IMG/VR virus record: IMGVR_UViG_3300032167_000048
Source: a virus
Lineage: Duplodnaviria; Caudoviricetes
Reading direction: 5' to 3' (one strand)
DNA length: 64,000 nt
The translations under genes were made by a program, and so were the position numbers. The notes beneath the pieces are model-generated. The model had not been told where the DNA came from and made no database searches. It saw only the letters and a program-made list of their open reading frames with translations. The first letter of the stretch is position 1. Every line of letters begins with the position of its first letter. Of the stretch, positions 2,083 through 29,624 are shown one piece after another.

Positions 2083-2952
2083 ATGAATAATAATTTACAA
2101 ACATTGATTGACAATGCCATTGAGAATACTGTTATTAAATTAACAAGTGATATTGTAGTAGCAGAAACTGTAATAGTGTCAAAAAATATTACTATTGATT
2201 TAAATGGTTGTACAATTAAGAACACAGAAGACATTTGGAATACAAATGAAAAAAAATGGTCTTTAATTTCTGTTCGCAATAATGGTATTTTAACATTGTT
2301 AGACAGTAGCGATGCTGGTACTGGTACTTTGTTTGCTAAAGAAAATGATTGCTATGCCGTTGATGTTTGTGACGGTGGTATGTTAATTGTTGAAAGTGGT
2401 ACTTATATTGGTAACATTTCTTCTATTTATGTTCATACTGGTACTGCATATATTAATGGCGGTTATTACAAAGTTCAACAAGTTTCTAGTATGAATGGAT
2501 ATGGGGAAACTATTAACTGCTATGATGCTAACTTTAGAAATGGCACAGCGAAAGTAGTTATATCTGGTGGTTCTTTCTATAATTTTAATCCTACAGATGC
2601 TGCTGAACCTATTGATTGTAATAATAGTTATTTATCTAAAAACACTAAGATGGTTTATGATGAAGAATCAAAGTCTTATGTGATAACTAAACGCGAATTT
2701 AAGATTGTTGCAACTACTGGCGATAAGATTAAATCTCTGGGCATTAAAGATGGACAGCTTATATTCATTCAAGACGAAGGAAGAGTTGCTTTTGATTTTA
2801 ATGGTACTAGAGTTTTTTATGACAATAGTGGCGAATTAAAGGATATTTATTCTAAGATTGCTACTCTTGAAGAAGAAAAAGTTAATGCAACTACAGTACA
2901 GAATATGATTGAAGAATATTCTGAATCTGCAATGGCTATTGTTGAATTTTAG
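2083..2952 (+). CDS. Tail-module protein with a probable beta-helix region and an adaptor domain
   Basis: Gly/Asn-rich beta repeats; GQLIF domain shared with 2978..3451. Confidence 0.55.
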   Translation: MNNNLQTLIDNAIENTVIKLTSDIVVAETVIVSKNITIDLNGCTIKNTEDIWNTNEKKWSLISVRNNGILTLLDSSDAGTGTLFAKENDCYAVDVCDGGMLIVESGTYIGNISSIYVHTGTAYINGGYYKVQQVSSMNGYGETINCYDANFRNGTAKVVISGGSFYNFNPTDAAEPIDCNNSYLSKNTKMVYDEESKSYVITKREFKIVATTGDKIKSLGIKDGQLIFIQDEGRVAFDFNGTRVFYDNSGELKDIYSKIATLEEEKVNATTVQNMIEEYSESAMAIVEF

Positions 2953-26751: not shown

Positions 26752-27915
26752 TTAGCCCTCACTTTCTTTTCTTTCATTTTTAATTTTATTTGACCACCAA
26801 ACATTCCATTTTTCTACAATCTCTTTCTGTTCTTTTGTAAGAGGATGATTGTATCTCTGTAATGCTTGGACAATCTTATCGTTTCTAACCTCAATTGTTA
26901 CGAGGCTTTCGCTTGGTGCGTCTTTATATCTTAAGAATAAAATATGACACTGACCATCAATAACTCTTTGGATATATGATGCTACACAGTTGTTCTGAGC
27001 AACGGCTTCATCTTTGATATCCTGAGTACAATTTGGATAAAAGAATCTATACTCTCCAAACGTTTTCTCCATATCTTTATTAATTCTATCTTTGAATTTT
27101 TCTTCTTTAAACTGCTGTTTTAATCTATCATAGTTTCTACAAGCAATCTGATGTGTTGTAAGAAAATGTCTAGGGTATTTATCAAATTTATCACTAATTT
27201 GTTTCATCATAGATGCATAATCATAAATTTCACCCAATGCGCTACTTGGAATAATGGCTTCAAATGTCATCAAATAATCAAGATAATTCATTAATCCTTT
27301 TACTGTATATCCATATTCTGAAATAAGCTTATTAAATGTTGAAACACTAACCCAGTTATAATCCCATGTTCTTTCTCCGTAATATTTTTTTACAGATTTT
27401 GTATTATGTAATATGCTATTAATTTCATCATCTGTTAATGACATATATTCAAGCTTATACGCAAGTTGATATCCGTCTGGATTTTCTTTATAATTTTTTA
27501 AAAAGCTATCTGATAATTTAATACTATGTGTTTTACATAATTTAATTAATGCTTTTGGAATGTCATTGATTGTATATGAGAAATTACGAGTATTAATAAT
27601 ATCTTCAATTCCAGCAGAAAAAATCTGTTCGTATTTTGCATAACGTGGAATCTTATCTAAAATTGTTCCAACGTTATTAATGTCATGAAATCTGCTTGAA
27701 TATGTTCTTTTAACAAATGAAAGAAACTTTGCATACTTCTCATCTTCACAACAATTAATAACATCATCCATTGTCAACCCTCTTAACTGAGAGCACAAAT
27801 TAGTTACTGGTTTACCTTTTTTTCCAATACATTCTTTTGTAGCGAAATTATATTTTACTGTCTTGCCATCTTCAAAATCAAAAATTAAAAACTGTCTTTC
27901 TTTATAAACTTTCAT
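26752..27915 (-). CDS. PcfJ-like domain protein
   Basis: DY..M, YP....H, E...QNNCVASY, TIEV. Confidence 0.8.
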   Translation of the reverse strand: MKVYKERQFLIFDFEDGKTVKYNFATKECIGKKGKPVTNLCSQLRGLTMDDVINCCEDEKYAKFLSFVKRTYSSRFHDINNVGTILDKIPRYAKYEQIFSAGIEDIINTRNFSYTINDIPKALIKLCKTHSIKLSDSFLKNYKENPDGYQLAYKLEYMSLTDDEINSILHNTKSVKKYYGERTWDYNWVSVSTFNKLISEYGYTVKGLMNYLDYLMTFEAIIPSSALGEIYDYASMMKQISDKFDKYPRHFLTTHQIACRNYDRLKQQFKEEKFKDRINKDMEKTFGEYRFFYPNCTQDIKDEAVAQNNCVASYIQRVIDGQCHILFLRYKDAPSESLVTIEVRNDKIVQALQRYNHPLTKEQKEIVEKWNVWWSNKIKNERKESEG

Positions 27916-27960
27916 ACTTCTTTTTCATTCATTATTTAAAACCTTGTTAATAAGTTACAA

Positions 27961-28039
27961 TTGCAAGATAAGGATTTGAACCTTAGTTTAATCTTAGCTT
28001 TGCTATAAGATTCGTGTTATCCATTTACACTATCTTGCA
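27961..28039 (-). ncRNA. tRNA-like element with a 13-nt anticodon loop
   Basis: Acceptor TGCAAGA/TCTTGCA, D stem GTGT/ACAC, T arm TAAGG-TTCAAAT-CCTTA; no assignable anticodon. Confidence 0.75.
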
Positions 28040-28046
28040 TTAATAT

Positions 28047-28448
28047 GTTATTCGCTATTTACCAGCCTTGCAGATGCTTATAGTCATGTACAACTAAACT
28101 AAACTGTATATCAAGGATTTTGTAAATCTTTATAACTTTACTATTTATTCTTTTAACTTTGACTCATGAAATAAACTTTGAATTTTTAACTTTATTATTT
28201 GAGTTTTACAACTTTAAACTTTACAGTCCCACTATGTAAATATTTATCAATATTTGGCTATAAGTTTAACACACTTACCCATTTTGATAAACAATCAAAT
28301 AAAAAGATTTCCAATCTTTTCCTCTGTTGTTTTTCTAAATCTCAGCTTTTAAGAAGAAGAGGTGTTTCTTTATTGTTTTACATAAGTCTAAGCACCCCTA
28401 AAAGACTTATGAGTTGTAGTCTAAAGTTTTCAATAAACAGCGAATAAC
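28047..28448 (-). ncRNA. Putative ~400-nt structured RNA with a heptamer repeat array
   Basis: 17-bp closing helix (G-U wobbles valid only on the minus strand), internal hairpins, AAAGUU repeats, no credible ORF. Confidence 0.7.
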
Positions 28449-28484
28449 CAATTTATATTAACTACATAAGTAGCTTTCTACTAT

Positions 28485-29141
28485 TTAGTAGTTAACTTCA
28501 ATTTCTGTAATTGCATTAGATACTGAAAGCGCAGCGTCTACTTCTGCCTTGAATGTGTTAATATGTTCTTCTAATGCGTTAATCTTATCCAGAATCTTGA
28601 TAGGGTCTACAAGTTCGTATGTATTTGCTTTAATGAACTGCATTCTAGCCTTTTCATATTCTTCTGTATTCACCTTGCCCTCTTTAGAACCAAATGCACC
28701 AATTACATACTGTTCTGCTCTTTTTTCAAGTTCAGAGCCGTTTTCTCTAAGGATTTCAGCCTGAGCTCTGTTATACTGTTTCTGTAATTCAAGGAGCATG
28801 TGTTCATCAAAAGTAACACCATGATTTTTCATTTCAATAGCTTCTGCCACTGTGTATTCAATACCATTAATTTTTACTTTTGTTACTGCGTTTGACAATA
28901 CAACAGCTTTTTTAATAGCGTTTCTTCTCTTAATCAAATCAGATGCCTTGTCGTAGTTTCCCTGCATAACAGTTTTATATTCTTCAACTGACACGCCTTT
29001 GATTTTATCGTTTGAATGTTTATTTGCTACACAAAATGAACCATTCATAATAGAAGAAAGAATTCTATTATCTAAAAGCTTTAATTCTGCTAATGCTTTA
29101 TGAATTGTCATCTTTTCATTTGTTGCCATGATTTTCACCAT
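28485..29141 (-). CDS. 218-aa alpha-helical coiled-coil protein of unknown function
   Basis: MTIHKALAELK...YTVAEAIEMK...VDAALSVSNA; gaaagg RBS. Confidence 0.8.
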   Translation of the reverse strand: MVKIMATNEKMTIHKALAELKLLDNRILSSIMNGSFCVANKHSNDKIKGVSVEEYKTVMQGNYDKASDLIKRRNAIKKAVVLSNAVTKVKINGIEYTVAEAIEMKNHGVTFDEHMLLELQKQYNRAQAEILRENGSELEKRAEQYVIGAFGSKEGKVNTEEYEKARMQFIKANTYELVDPIKILDKINALEEHINTFKAEVDAALSVSNAITEIEVNY

Positions 29142-29215
29142 TTTAACCTTTCTTTTAAACTTTGAATCTTTTAAACTTTATTACACCAACGTTTTATAGG
29201 CTAGACATTGGTAAA

Positions 29216-29285
29216 CAAGAACGGTGGGAGTCGAACCCACGTCTACGACTTAAAGTCATTGCTCTACCTACTGAGCTACATTCCC
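29216..29285 (-). tRNA. Aberrant tRNA (5-nt anticodon loop; pseudo-tRNA or tRNA-like)
   Basis: GGGAATG TA GCTC..GAGC A ATGAC TTTAA GTCGT AGAC GTGGG TTCGACT CCCAC CGTTCTT G. Confidence 0.65.
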
Positions 29286-29358
29286 GATTGTGTAGGGACT
29301 TCCTACACAGCACCTAAAAAGGAAAGGAGGATTATTTAAAAAAGATTTTCTACAACGA

Positions 29359-29431
29359 CTGCCCCTACTGGATTCGAACCAGTGTAATGCAGGAGTCAAA
29401 GTCCTGTGCCTTACCGCTTGGCGAAGGAGCA
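29359..29431 (-). tRNA. tRNA-Gln(UUG)
   Basis: Canonical cloverleaf, CAGGA CT-TTG-AC TCCTG, U1-A72 and G73. Confidence 0.92.
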
Positions 29432-29436
29432 ATAAG

Positions 29437-29525
29437 TACACCCTCCCAGATTCGAACTGGGCTTATACCTTGCTAGGGCTTACGACTTATAAGGTCGTGG
29501 CTCTCACCTAATGAGCTAAGGGTGC
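29437..29525 (-). tRNA. tRNA with UAU anticodon (Ile, AUA) and a 20-nt variable region
   Basis: ACGAC CT-TAT-AA GTCGT; T arm CCCAG TTCGAAT CTGGG; acceptor GCACCCT/AGGGTGT. Confidence 0.8.
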
Positions 29526-29624
29526 TGAAAGGAGTGCCGCCTTTAACGGCTTATTCATTTTAGAATAAGGTTGAGTTCCACTGCTTTATGACAAAAAACA
29601 AAGAATCCAGAGATTCGAAATTGG

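What the first reader, a model, noticed from the sequence alone, without database searches (positions are those of the whole stretch)
28047..29180. Candidate protein-RNA system: coiled-coil gene plus a ~400-nt structured RNA sharing AAAGUU heptamer repeats with the gene's own leader
Seen: about 36 nt after the stop of the 218-aa gene, a non-coding stretch is closed by a 17-bp helix (28432-28448 with 28047-28063). Its three imperfect pairs are G-U on the minus strand but A-C on the plus strand, which points to a minus-strand RNA. Inside are hairpins (28381-28411 with a perfect 9-bp stem; 28302-28320; 28283-28299; 28238-28255), ccttg/caagg (28066/28112) and a long-range CUUAUAG/CUAUAAG pairing (28258-28264 with 28077-28083). 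A ~100-nt tract (28125-28222) has 6 exact AAAGTT (at 28134, 28155, 28174, 28188, 28210, 28217) plus variants (AAAGAT, AAAGAA, AAAATT, AAAACT) at roughly 7-nt periodicity. The same motif appears just upstream of the gene's RBS (29158, 29174; variants at 29165, 29145). Inference: the protein oligomerises on heptamer arrays, using the RNA as scaffold or sponge and autoregulating through its own leader. That would be a ribonucleoprotein, or a module akin to RNA-antitoxin systems. I cannot assign the RNA to a family I know.
Basis: partly seen in the sequence, partly recalled or inferred. Interest (0 to 1): 0.88.

Follow-up and report, generated by a model that had tools for sequence, protein, structure and literature searches.

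The report
Phage heptad-repeat RNA with partner protein
The "empty" 400 bases behind a small phage gene encode a real, doubly knotted RNA that displays about 13 evenly spaced 7-base units. The same gene-plus-RNA pair recurs from gut phages to model phage T5 and cyanobacterial tRNA gene arrays, so it is probably an undescribed protein-RNA particle whose job is untested.

Summary
Window 28047-28448 (minus strand) encodes a 402-nt RNA closed by an 18-bp helix. It has two pseudoknots and a single-stranded array of 13 U-Y-A-A-A-G-N heptads.

Its first 86 nt match Rfam RAGATH-27, an orphan motif of unknown function (88 bits, threshold 76.1). The other 316 nt match no Rfam family.

The RNA follows the 218-aa gene in all 147 testable loci. 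These include gut phages, T5 (ORF080), other cultured phages and cyanobacterial chromosomal tRNA arrays. The helices covary strongly: 96% of cells pair, 24 of 30 pairs show compensatory changes, and no shuffle out of 500 does as well.

The protein has no known family. It is modelled as a symmetric dimer, and its nearest fold is 3kdq, itself of unknown function.

The gene's leader carries the same heptads more often than neighbouring genes' leaders do.

Not shown here: transcription, protein-RNA binding, or any function. The internal hairpins at 28238-28320 are lineage-specific, and the proposed CUUAUAG/CUAUAAG pairing is at chance level. The antitoxin analogy is not supported.

This scan has reported the same family at least eight times on other DNA. 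I found no paper describing it.

The parts
28047..28448 (-). Full-length structured RNA, 402 nt.
   Evidence: Bounded by closing helix P1. A homologous RNA lies directly after the partner gene in all testable loci. MFE z-score is -3.5.
28431..28448 (-). P1, 5' strand of the closing helix.
   Evidence: Forms 18 bp with 28047-28064. In the 22-sequence alignment 99.4% of cells pair and 11 of the 14 aligned pairs show compensatory changes. The innermost G-U pair is kept in all 22 sequences; a second position is G-U in 19 and G-C in 3.
28047..28064 (-). P1, 3' strand. It is preceded by the near-invariant GGCUG.
28359..28444 (-). Segment matching Rfam RF03100 (RAGATH-27).
   Evidence: cmscan scores 88 bits against a gathering score of 76.1, covering model positions 1-86 in full.
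28412..28418 (-). PK2 5' strand (UACAACU), in the joining region after P1.
   Evidence: Pairs with 28089-28095. A 7-bp helix is present in 21 of 22 sequences, with about 10 different sequence combinations. Each sequence's own helix scores 6.7 on average, against 4.7 for cross-pairings and for shuffles.
28381..28411 (-). P2 hairpin: 9-bp stem, 28403-28411 with 28381-28389.
   Evidence: 7 of the 8 aligned pairs show compensatory changes.
28393..28398 (-). P3 5' strand (GGGGUG). It sits inside the P2 loop, which makes an H-type pseudoknot.
   Evidence: This is the stem annotated in the Rfam model. It pairs with 28359-28364. By eye the partner strands change together in relatives.
28359..28364 (-). 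P3 3' strand (CACCUC).
28227..28358 (-). Variable insert with lineage-specific hairpins, including 28302-28320, 28283-28299 and 28238-28255.
   Evidence: Relatives cannot be aligned here; the insert runs from 48 to 183 nt. In some cyanobacteria this slot holds a whole tRNA.
28117..28226 (-). Invariant CUGU followed by an array of 13 heptad units: 9 UAAA-type and 4 CAAA-type, split 7 + 6 by a 12-nt spacer.
   Evidence: The array is unpaired in the consensus fold. The units keep the same register across the alignment.
28112..28116 (-). P4 5' strand (CCUUG).
   Evidence: Pairs with 28066-28070. All cells pair and 3 of 5 pairs show compensatory changes.
28066..28070 (-). P4 3' strand (CAAGG).
28082..28100 (-). 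P5 hairpin (AGU/ACU stem). Its loop carries the PK2 3' strand AGUUGUA at 28089-28095.
28485..29141 (-). Partner gene, 218 aa (T5 ORF080 family, PHROG 1491). The start could instead be the ATG at 29129.
   Evidence: AlphaFold2 model pLDDT 85.5. Modelled as a symmetric dimer.
29143..29182 (-). Leader with four heptad-like units (UAAAGUU, AAAGAU, CAAAGUU, AAAGAA) running into the ribosome-binding site.
29215..29286 (-). tRNA with anticodon UUA (ochre-suppressor type), ending 73 nt before the gene.
27961..28039 (-). tRNA-like element starting 7 nt after the RNA's 3' end. A long hairpin replaces the anticodon arm.

Best explanation
**Shown**
- The stretch encodes a conserved 402-nt RNA on the minus strand.
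- Its core is built from a closing helix (P1), a helix stacked next to it (P4) and two pseudoknots. The first pseudoknot is P2/P3. The second (PK2) joins the region after P1 to a hairpin loop in the 3' domain.
- This core holds out a long loop that carries a variable insert and about 13 unpaired U-Y-A-A-A-G-N heptads.
- The RNA is inherited together with the upstream 218-aa helical protein.
- No promoter-like or terminator-like site separates the upstream tRNAs, the gene, the RNA and the downstream tRNA-like element.

**Inferred**
- The unit is made as one transcript and trimmed by tRNA processing.
- The protein, at least a dimer, binds the YAA-centred heptads in multiple copies and forms a defined particle.
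- The same protein binds the two to four heptads next to its own ribosome-binding site and so limits its own translation.
- The particle serves translation or RNA maintenance, because it travels with tRNA arrays.
For: **Structure**
- 96.4% of cells pair, against 75% in shuffles and 32-44% when partners are slid by 1-3 columns.
- 24 of 30 pairs have compensatory changes, and none of 500 shuffles does as well.
- PK2 is present in 21 of 22 sequences, with about 10 pair combinations.
- G-U pairs exist only on this strand.

**Linkage with the gene**
- A profile of the 3' domain built from gut-phage RNAs alone hits 143 of 152 protein-bearing loci. Four more loci show the RNA through their closing helix, and five are truncated.
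- Going the other way, 11 of 11 testable RNA-like pattern hits have the protein upstream.
- The loci include T5, ten cultured phage lineages and complete cyanobacterial chromosomes.

**Array**
- The period is 7 in all three groups. The modal spacing is 7, with 6-16 units (mostly 10-15) in each 121-nt stretch examined.

**Leader**
- The leader is enriched for the same units.

**Protein self-association**
- Score 0.64, best of 3 controls 0.00.
- That mark was reached by 20 of 30 proteins solved as pairs of one chain and by 1 of 23 solved as single chains.
- The runs agree in at least 93% of contacts, and the partner's pLDDT is at least 86.

**Transcription unit**
- The simple consensus scan finds no promoter-like or terminator-like site at the tRNA-gene, gene-RNA or RNA-tRNA-like junctions.

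**Genomic context**
- 76 of 95 distinct loci carry tRNAs, and 13 have a tRNA inside the RNA.
- Cyanobacterial neighbours are PARG, Macro, Tpt1/KptA and HNH proteins.
- Cyanobacterial long tRNA arrays are induced by translational stress (PMC8421152).
Against: - No experiment or read data here shows that the RNA is made, where its ends are, or that the protein touches it.
- The protein has no recognisable RNA-binding domain.
- The modelled assembly is a symmetric dimer, not a ring or filament.
- The leader enrichment is uneven: strong in gut phages, weak or absent in several cyanobacteria. It is also not lineage-matched, since leaders share about as many 6-mers with other lineages' arrays (5.2) as with their own (5.9).
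- A-rich leaders are common in AT-rich phages.
- The lineages compared are related, so the p-values overstate independence.
Confidence: 0.5

Rival explanations
1. The RNA works with something other than its neighbour protein. Candidates are the ribosome, tRNAs, RNA-repair enzymes or a host RNA-binding protein. The protein would then be only a co-expressed member of the same pathway and would not bind the array.
For: - The protein has no RNA-binding family match.
- The module always travels with tRNAs and, in cyanobacteria, with RNA-repair or ADP-ribose enzymes.
- Large orphan phage RNAs with no known protein partner exist. The related loci here also carry other orphan RNAs such as RAGATH-36, skipping-rope and FuFi-1.
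Against: - Strict adjacency, with only 2-38 nt between stop codon and RNA in most phages, is kept down to 27% protein identity.
- The heptads in the gene's own leader are hard to explain without a direct link.
Confidence: 0.25
2. The RNA is a cis-acting 3' untranslated element of the gene's messenger. It would act as a stability cap or as a processing platform inside a tRNA operon, and would have no role as a separate molecule.
For: - No promoter-like or terminator-like site lies between the gene and the RNA.
- The RNA ends 7 nt before a tRNA-like element.
- 40 of 95 loci have a tRNA on the same strand within 200 nt downstream.
Against: - A stability cap would not need two pseudoknots, conserved G-U pairs and a dozen phased single-stranded units kept from Clostridia phages to cyanobacteria.
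- In L069 and L079 another small ORF separates the gene from the RNA by about 270 nt, yet the RNA is intact.
Confidence: 0.12
3. The heptads are codon-like docking sites (YAA, often followed by A and G) for the anticodon loops of tRNAs with UUN anticodons, or decoys for enzymes that attack those loops.
For: - All 13 units in the window are UAAA or CAAA.
- The two tRNAs just upstream have anticodons UUA and UUG, which read UAA and CAA.
- The module is embedded in tRNA arrays.
Against: - The base after YAA, which would pair with the invariant U33, is A in only 57% of cyanobacterial units and 65-71% of phage units. The next base is not conserved.
- I ran no test of pairing.
- A match between YAA units and two tRNAs in a single phage could be coincidence.
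Confidence: 0.06
4. It is a DNA-level element, such as replication iterons with an inverted repeat, or an RNA-antitoxin (type III toxin-antitoxin) locus.
For: Direct repeats and a flanking inverted repeat look like iterons at first sight. Type III antitoxins are repeat RNAs that lie next to their protein gene.
Against: - Pairing is kept through G-U pairs that would be A-C mismatches on the other strand, and through compensatory changes and pseudoknots.
- Type III antitoxin repeats are about 34-36 nt and lie upstream of the toxin gene (own knowledge). These units are 7 nt and lie downstream.
- The only defence-library hit is AbiEi at E 0.035.
Confidence: 0.02

Closest known systems
RAGATH-27 RNA motif (Rfam RF03100), an orphan candidate small RNA
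   Same: The first 86 nt of this RNA match the model end to end above its threshold (88 against 76.1 bits). The same holds in 10 of 20 related loci, always directly after the partner gene.
   Different: The Rfam model covers about a fifth of the molecule and annotates one stem. Here its 'unpaired' 5' end forms an 18-bp helix with a strand 380 nt downstream. Another part of it forms a pseudoknot with the 3' domain, and the 316 nt beyond it are conserved too. T5, Vibrio and C. difficile phage members are not detected by the Rfam model at all. A 2024 paper states that the functions of the remaining RAGATH motifs are unknown (PMC11061315).
TRAP and HutP with their RNA operators in Bacillus (own knowledge)
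   Same: Both are oligomeric proteins that read triplets repeated at a fixed spacing on single-stranded RNA. HutP reads UAG triplets separated by 4 nt, which gives a period of 7, the same as here. The YAA core repeated every 7 nt and the operator-like copies in the gene's own leader fit this logic.
   Different: There is no sequence or fold similarity to either protein. The array here sits in a separate knotted RNA rather than in a regulated leader. It has about 13 units. Binding has not been shown.
RAGATH-18 RNA with IS607 TnpB (PMC11061315)
   Same: It is a precedent: an orphan RAGATH motif turned out to be the core of a longer RNA bound by the protein encoded next to it, and this was found from gene-RNA co-occurrence.
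   Different: That RNA guides a nuclease to DNA. Here the protein has no nuclease domain and the RNA has no obvious guide segment.
tmRNA with SmpB
   Same: Similar size (about 350-400 nt), ends paired into a closing helix, several pseudoknots, presence in phages and near tRNA genes, and a small partner-protein gene next to it (own knowledge).
   Different: There is no tRNA-like acceptor or T-arm and no tag reading frame. ARAGORN and Rfam do not call it a tmRNA. One related phage carries a true tmRNA as well (L069).
PDB 3kdq (Corynebacterium diphtheriae protein of unknown function) and Pfam DUF6847
   Same: 3kdq is the best fold match for the partner protein: Z 9.8, rmsd 6.8 A, 151 of 152 residues aligned, with the next hit at Z 7.2. 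One ESM Atlas neighbour cluster carries DUF6847.
   Different: By sequence only 1 of 19 members touches DUF6847 (E 0.02, below threshold). The match is in the range where helical bundles can resemble each other by chance. Neither relative has a known function.

Membership tests
RAGATH-27 (Rfam RF03100) | Covariance-model score at or above the curated gathering score (76.1 bits) over the full model. | tested here: met
   88 bits, model positions 1-86 of 86, at 28359-28444 on the minus strand.
RAGATH-27 (Rfam RF03100) | The annotated 7-bp stem enclosing a 26-nt loop, after a conserved 46-nt 5' stretch. | tested here: met
   The alignment shows 6 of 7 pairs standard (GGGGUG with CACCUC) and a near-identical 5' stretch.
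RAGATH-27 (Rfam RF03100) | A stand-alone small RNA of about 86 nt, as the family is filed. | tested here: not met
   The model's 5' end pairs with 28047-28064, and conservation and covariation continue for 316 nt beyond the model. The family's boundaries are incomplete; the hit itself is sound.
Type III toxin-antitoxin (ToxIN-like) | The antitoxin is a tandem array of about 34-36-nt repeats upstream of the toxin gene (own knowledge). | tested here: not met
   The units are 7 nt and lie downstream of the gene, inside a knotted RNA.
Type III toxin-antitoxin (ToxIN-like) | The protein belongs to a known toxin or defence family. | tested here: not met
   In PADLOC the only match is AbiEi at E 0.035. 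There are no Pfam or NCBIfam matches.
TRAP / HutP type RNA-binding attenuation proteins | The protein is homologous to TRAP or HutP. | tested here: not met
   No Pfam hit. Neither protein appears among the fold matches, but a fold that is not listed is not thereby excluded.
TRAP / HutP type RNA-binding attenuation proteins | The RNA target has triplets repeated at a fixed spacing on single-stranded RNA. | tested here: met
   A YAA core every 7 nt, 13 units here, unpaired in the consensus fold.
TRAP / HutP type RNA-binding attenuation proteins | The protein forms a ring whose subunits each bind one repeat. | not testable with these tools
   Only two copies were modelled, and they form a symmetric dimer. 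Higher assemblies and RNA binding cannot be modelled here.
tmRNA | A tRNA-like domain (acceptor stem and T-arm) and a tag-peptide reading frame. | tested here: not met
   ARAGORN and Rfam find no tmRNA in the window. The array has stop codons in every frame (sequence).
GOLLD / ROOL and other large catalogued RNAs | A match to the Rfam model. | tested here: not met
   No hit up to E = 5 on 27900-29600 apart from RAGATH-27, tRNAs and noise.
DUF6847 (Pfam PF20935), for the protein | Score above the Pfam gathering threshold. | tested here: not met
   0 of 19 members pass. One reaches E 0.02.
DUF6847 (Pfam PF20935), for the protein | The same fold as solved or predicted members. | tested here: inconclusive
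   3kdq at Z 9.8. An Atlas cluster with DUF6847 in 16% of members gives TM 0.55 / 0.68. I did not test whether 3kdq itself belongs to DUF6847.

The most novel reading that the evidence does not exclude
The gene and RNA form an undescribed ribonucleoprotein particle that belongs to mobile tRNA arrays, both in phages and in cyanobacterial stress-induced tRNA operons. Its dozen YAA heptads would act as a docking or decoy platform that protects or organises the translation apparatus. For example, they might hold tRNAs with UUN anticodons, or soak up enzymes that cut or modify such tRNAs or messengers during infection or translational stress.
Probability: 0.12. Interest if true: 0.92.

Novelty: new variant of a known kind. 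Interest (0 to 1): 0.8.

Why it matters
The partner protein family has about 3,000 clusters at 50% identity. It is present in 741 deposited phage genomes, where it is often labelled "tail fiber protein" without visible support.

Behind it lies a 240-460-nt knotted RNA that is not annotated in any of the ten cultured-phage records I inspected, including the model phage T5. Public RNA catalogues hold only a fragment of one branch.

The pair also sits inside cyanobacterial long tRNA arrays. Published work ties those arrays to survival under translational stress (PMC8421152), which gives a concrete physiological setting.

Because T5 and E. coli are tractable, the open question of what this particle does can be tested directly. 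The answer may explain part of why large phages and mobile elements carry tRNA islands.

Tried and rejected
**Expression**
- One search for sequencing runs found only small shares of the stretch.
- Laying three runs showed short contigs from relatives.
- A metatranscriptome (X2) has a 157-nt contig covering 28067-28224 with 10 differences. A library labelled RNA-Seq but probably DNA (X1) has a 218-nt contig covering 28043-28229.
- DNA can be present in such libraries and contigs cannot show RNA ends, so this is no evidence of transcription.

- The long-range CUUAUAG/CUAUAAG pairing is at chance level and is not conserved.

**Alignment and models**
- MAFFT misaligns the P3 and PK2 strands between subfamilies, so I assessed PK2 per sequence instead.
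- A whole-RNA covariance model could not be built. Even the shortest members align to 509 columns, and the limit is 400. I used a profile HMM of the 3' domain instead.

**Pattern scan**
- The gapped pattern scan of viral contigs returned mostly chance matches: 67 of the 80 loci examined (119 matching stretches in all). Only the 13 RNA-like loci were used.

**Protein**
- No consistent fused or longer forms exist; there are only 4 singletons.
- Foldseek found nothing in the PDB at E <= 0.001.
- The profile search against PDB sequences gave only noise.

**Literature**
- 'RAGATH-27' and 'DUF6847' appear in no searchable paper.
- The 2017 survey's main text does not use the word RAGATH.
- T5 searches turned up no description of this RNA. 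One phage-RNA catalogue and one 2026 preprint that I term-searched for RAGATH and related words do not mention it. Older T5 papers are outside the searchable library.

**Anticodon-loop docking**
- The idea fits this window, but the flanking bases it needs are not conserved in cyanobacteria.

**Promoter and genetic code**
- No sigma-70-type promoter was found for the RNA itself.
- An alternative genetic code is not needed. The standard code gives 74% coding from long frames, and TAA is the main stop codon.
Full report
**Setting**

The window is part of a complete 153-kb IMG/VR virus record. It is AT-rich. The neighbouring genes are phage-like: PcfJ-like, N4 gp49 family, dUTPase and a radical-SAM activase.

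On the minus strand the order is:
- tRNA-Ile(UAU), tRNA-Gln(UUG) and a tRNA with anticodon UUA
- a 73-nt leader
- a 218-aa ORF (29141-28485)
- a 36-nt gap
- the non-coding stretch 28448-28047
- 7 nt later, a tRNA-like element (28039-27961)
- the PcfJ-like gene

**Observation**

- The closing helix is real and is in fact 18 bp. Its G-U pairs exist only on the minus strand.
- The six AAAGTT copies and the two leader copies are where stated.
- The 9-bp hairpin and the ccttg/caagg pair are present.
- The RNA folds better than all 100 shuffles (z -3.5).

**Known part**

Rfam places RAGATH-27 (RF03100) on 28359-28444 with 88 bits against a threshold of 76.1. RAGATH-27 is an orphan motif. No searchable paper names it, and a 2024 paper states that the functions of the remaining RAGATH motifs are unknown (PMC11061315). 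Nothing else in Rfam matches the other 316 nt, even at E = 5.

**Relatives**

A search with the protein fetched 80 IMG/VR loci at 50-76% identity. In every distinct one the same RNA follows the gene, with a perfect 14-bp stretch of closing helix whose sequence changes from lineage to lineage. RAGATH-27 is detected directly after the gene in 10 of 20 representatives.

tblastn finds the protein in 741 deposited phage genomes. I inspected ten of them:
- T5 (ORF080)
- C. difficile phage phiCDIF1296T
- Vibrio phage Chester
- Salmonella phage SE131
- Pseudomonas phage PHB09
- Klebsiella phage VIK251
- Erwinia phage Desertfox
- Lactococcus phage AM1
- Aeromonas phage AhSzw-1
- Pantoea phage AAS21

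Each has an unannotated gap of 340-750 nt after the gene, and each gap contains the RNA. In T5 the RNA is AY587007.1 43061-43417 on the complement strand, ending just before the annotated promoter T5P23. Rfam does not detect the T5, C. difficile phage or Vibrio versions.

In species-representative bacterial genomes the protein occurs in 62 loci. These are Clostridia assemblies, which may be phage or prophage, and about 45 filamentous cyanobacteria, including complete chromosomes. In the cyanobacteria the pair sits inside long tRNA arrays. For example, it has 11 tRNAs upstream and 2 downstream in Calothrix PCC 7716.

A profile HMM of the 3' domain, built only from the 22 gut-phage RNAs, hits 143 of 152 protein-bearing loci. 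Four more show the RNA through their closing helix, and five are truncated contigs or truncated genes. That makes 147 of 147 testable loci.

In the reverse direction, 11 of 11 testable RNA-like hits of a pattern scan have the protein upstream. That pattern reaches only close relatives.

The protein family has 3,031 clusters at 50% identity with E <= 0.001. Nearly all of the best 150 are about 205-220 aa. There are no consistent fusions.

**Structure**

On a 22-sequence alignment (A1) the four nested helices pair in 96.4% of cells. Column shuffles give 75.3%, and sliding the partners by 1-3 columns gives 32-44%. Compensatory changes occur in 24 of 30 pairs, and none of 500 shuffles reaches any of the five measures. 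The innermost pair of P1 is G-U in all 22 sequences; a second position is G-U in 19 and G-C in 3.

There are two pseudoknots.
- The first is within the RAGATH-27 part. The 9-bp hairpin P2 encloses the 5' strand of the Rfam-annotated stem P3.
- The second (PK2) I found here. Seven bases after P1 (UACAACU, 28418-28412) pair with the loop of a hairpin in the 3' domain (AGUUGUA, 28095-28089).

PK2 is present in 21 of 22 sequences with about ten different sequence combinations. Its own-sequence score averages 6.7, against 4.7 for cross-pairings and shuffles. By eye T5 also has it, as AUCUUAC with GUAAGAU (sequence).

P1 and P4 are separated by a single base on the 3' side. The core is therefore compact, and the variable insert plus the array form one large loop.

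The proposed CUUAUAG/CUAUAAG pairing is at chance level and is not conserved.

**The array**

After an invariant CUGU the window has 13 units, split 7 + 6 by a 12-nt spacer. Nine are UAAA-type and four are CAAA-type.

Across gut phages, cultured phages and cyanobacteria:
- the autocorrelation of A peaks at lags 7, 14 and 21, and a coding control is flat
- the modal spacing is 7
- the unit logo is U-Y-A-A-A-G-N
- 6-16 units (mostly 10-15) fall in each 121-nt stretch examined

The units stay in register in the alignment, and the array is unpaired in the consensus fold.

**The leader**

In this window, 25 of the 37 leader 6-mers also occur in the array. Across 17 lineages the partner gene's leader carries 1.06 AAAGNT on average, against 0.11 for 62 other genes with ribosome-binding sites in the same loci. 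Across 26 lineages it shares 5.9 6-mers with the array, against 2.0 for other genes' leaders (p about 7e-4).

Leaders of Proteobacteria phages show the same pattern. T5 has UAAACUUC in both the leader and the array.

The signal is uneven and not lineage-matched, and the lineages are related. I therefore read it as moderate support for an operator, not as proof.

**The protein**

- Pfam, NCBIfam and PADLOC give nothing.
- PHROG 1491 and many GenBank records call it "tail fiber protein". I see no basis for that label: the gene sits among early or auxiliary genes and tRNAs.
- The AlphaFold2 model (pLDDT 85.5) is a helical bundle with a small sheet formed by the N- and C-terminal strands.
- The best solved fold is 3kdq, a protein of unknown function (Z 9.8, rmsd 6.8 A, 151 residues; the next hit is at Z 7.2).
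- Viral and Atlas neighbours are uncharacterised. One Atlas cluster carries DUF6847.
- Two copies are modelled as a symmetric dimer with about 190 contacts. The score is 0.64 and the best of 3 controls is 0.00. That mark was reached by 20 of 30 proteins solved as pairs of one chain and by 1 of 23 solved as single chains. The runs agree in at least 93% of contacts and the partner's pLDDT is at least 86. This supports self-association but does not show it.

**Context**

- 76 of 95 distinct loci hold tRNAs.
- 40 of 95 have a tRNA on the same strand within 200 nt after the RNA.
- 13 of 95 carry a whole tRNA inside the variable insert.
- No promoter-like or terminator-like site separates the tRNAs, gene and RNA in the window, so one tRNA-punctuated transcript is likely.

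Cyanobacterial neighbours include microbial PARG, Macro domains, the Tpt1/KptA RNA 2'-phosphotransferase and HNH endonucleases. The published study of these arrays reports induction by translational stress. It also reports neighbours enriched for RNA processing and translation, and notes embedded hypothetical genes without describing this RNA (PMC8421152).

**Reading**

I am about 97% confident that this is a genuine structured RNA gene tied to the protein.

That the protein binds the heptads in multiple copies and also its own leader is the most economical explanation of three things: the adjacency, the conserved unit number, and the leader copies. It remains an inference, which I put at about 50%. 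The working analogy is TRAP or HutP reading phased triplets. It is not a member of those families.

The rivals are a different binding partner, a purely cis-acting 3' element, and a tRNA-docking or decoy role. A DNA-level element and a type III toxin-antitoxin locus are effectively excluded.

**Earlier notes of this scan**

At least eight earlier follow-up reports on other DNA reached the same core conclusion. Later checks of two of them say part of their claims fell. I re-derived everything reported here independently.

What I added:
- the PK2 statistics
- the leader tests
- the dimer model
- the 147 of 147 linkage count
- the cyanobacterial neighbourhood

Expression is still not shown.

Noticed in passing
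window 29215-29286 (-): A tRNA with anticodon UUA, which would read the ochre stop UAA, lies 73 nt upstream of the gene. Yet TAA ends 34 of 42 long frames in the window and the standard code fits well. On its own the anticodon arm folds as 6 bp with a 3-nt loop, so it may not decode normally.
   Followed up: partly
window 27961-28039 (-): A tRNA-like element with good acceptor, D and T arms. Its anticodon arm is replaced by a long hairpin capped by GC-AAA-GC, and ARAGORN cannot name an anticodon. It starts 7 nt after the RNA's 3' end, so RNase P cleavage there could set that end.
   Followed up: partly
window 29436-29525 (-): The tRNA-Ile(UAU) is 90 nt long and has an extra arm between the anticodon and T arms.
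   Followed up: no
L073 1400-1556; L062 1952-2079; L055 4341-4414; L060 5077-5156; L028 and L031 about 2670-2842 (-); L069 969-1378: The related phage loci are islands of non-coding RNA. Within 3 kb of the pair they carry RAGATH-36, RAGATH-18, skipping-rope, FuFi-1 and a tmRNA, alongside many tRNAs.
   Followed up: no
L112 2223-2296; L129 2162-2247; L145 2177-2254: In some cyanobacteria a complete tRNA gene (Asp, Leu or Lys) sits inside the RNA, in the slot of the variable insert. tRNA processing would then cut the RNA into two pieces held together by the closing helix. L108 has only an anticodon-arm-like hairpin in that slot.
   Followed up: partly
L108 2400-3254; L129 224-739 and 789-1334; L126 622-1227: Cyanobacterial neighbours of the pair include a microbial-type PARG, Macro-domain proteins and a Tpt1/KptA RNA 2'-phosphotransferase. 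This is an ADP-ribose and RNA-repair flavour.
   Followed up: partly
L083 1-17; L089 1-2; L084 1982-2630: Several cultured phages have NAD-related genes next to the module: PnuC-type nicotinamide riboside transporters in Vibrio phage Chester and Aeromonas phage AhSzw-1, and ribose-phosphate pyrophosphokinase in Salmonella phage SE131.
   Followed up: no
L087 about 1760-1830: In Erwinia jumbo phage Desertfox the variable insert of the RNA contains tRNA-like pieces, a T-arm followed by an acceptor/D-arm-like sequence. This could be a permuted or degraded tRNA.
   Followed up: no
window 28207-28213 (-): The array contains a second copy of AGUUGUA, the 3' strand of pseudoknot PK2. It could offer an alternative partner for 28412-28418. 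I saw this only in the window's own RNA.
   Followed up: no
L124 about 1450-1475: The leader of a cyanobacterial partner gene has three exact tandem UUCUUAA heptads just before the ribosome-binding site.
   Followed up: no
PHROG 1491; GenBank records such as NC_055830.1 and NC_010583.1: The partner protein is widely annotated as 'tail fiber protein'. Its genomic position among tRNAs and early genes, its size and its helical-bundle model give no support for that name.
   Followed up: partly
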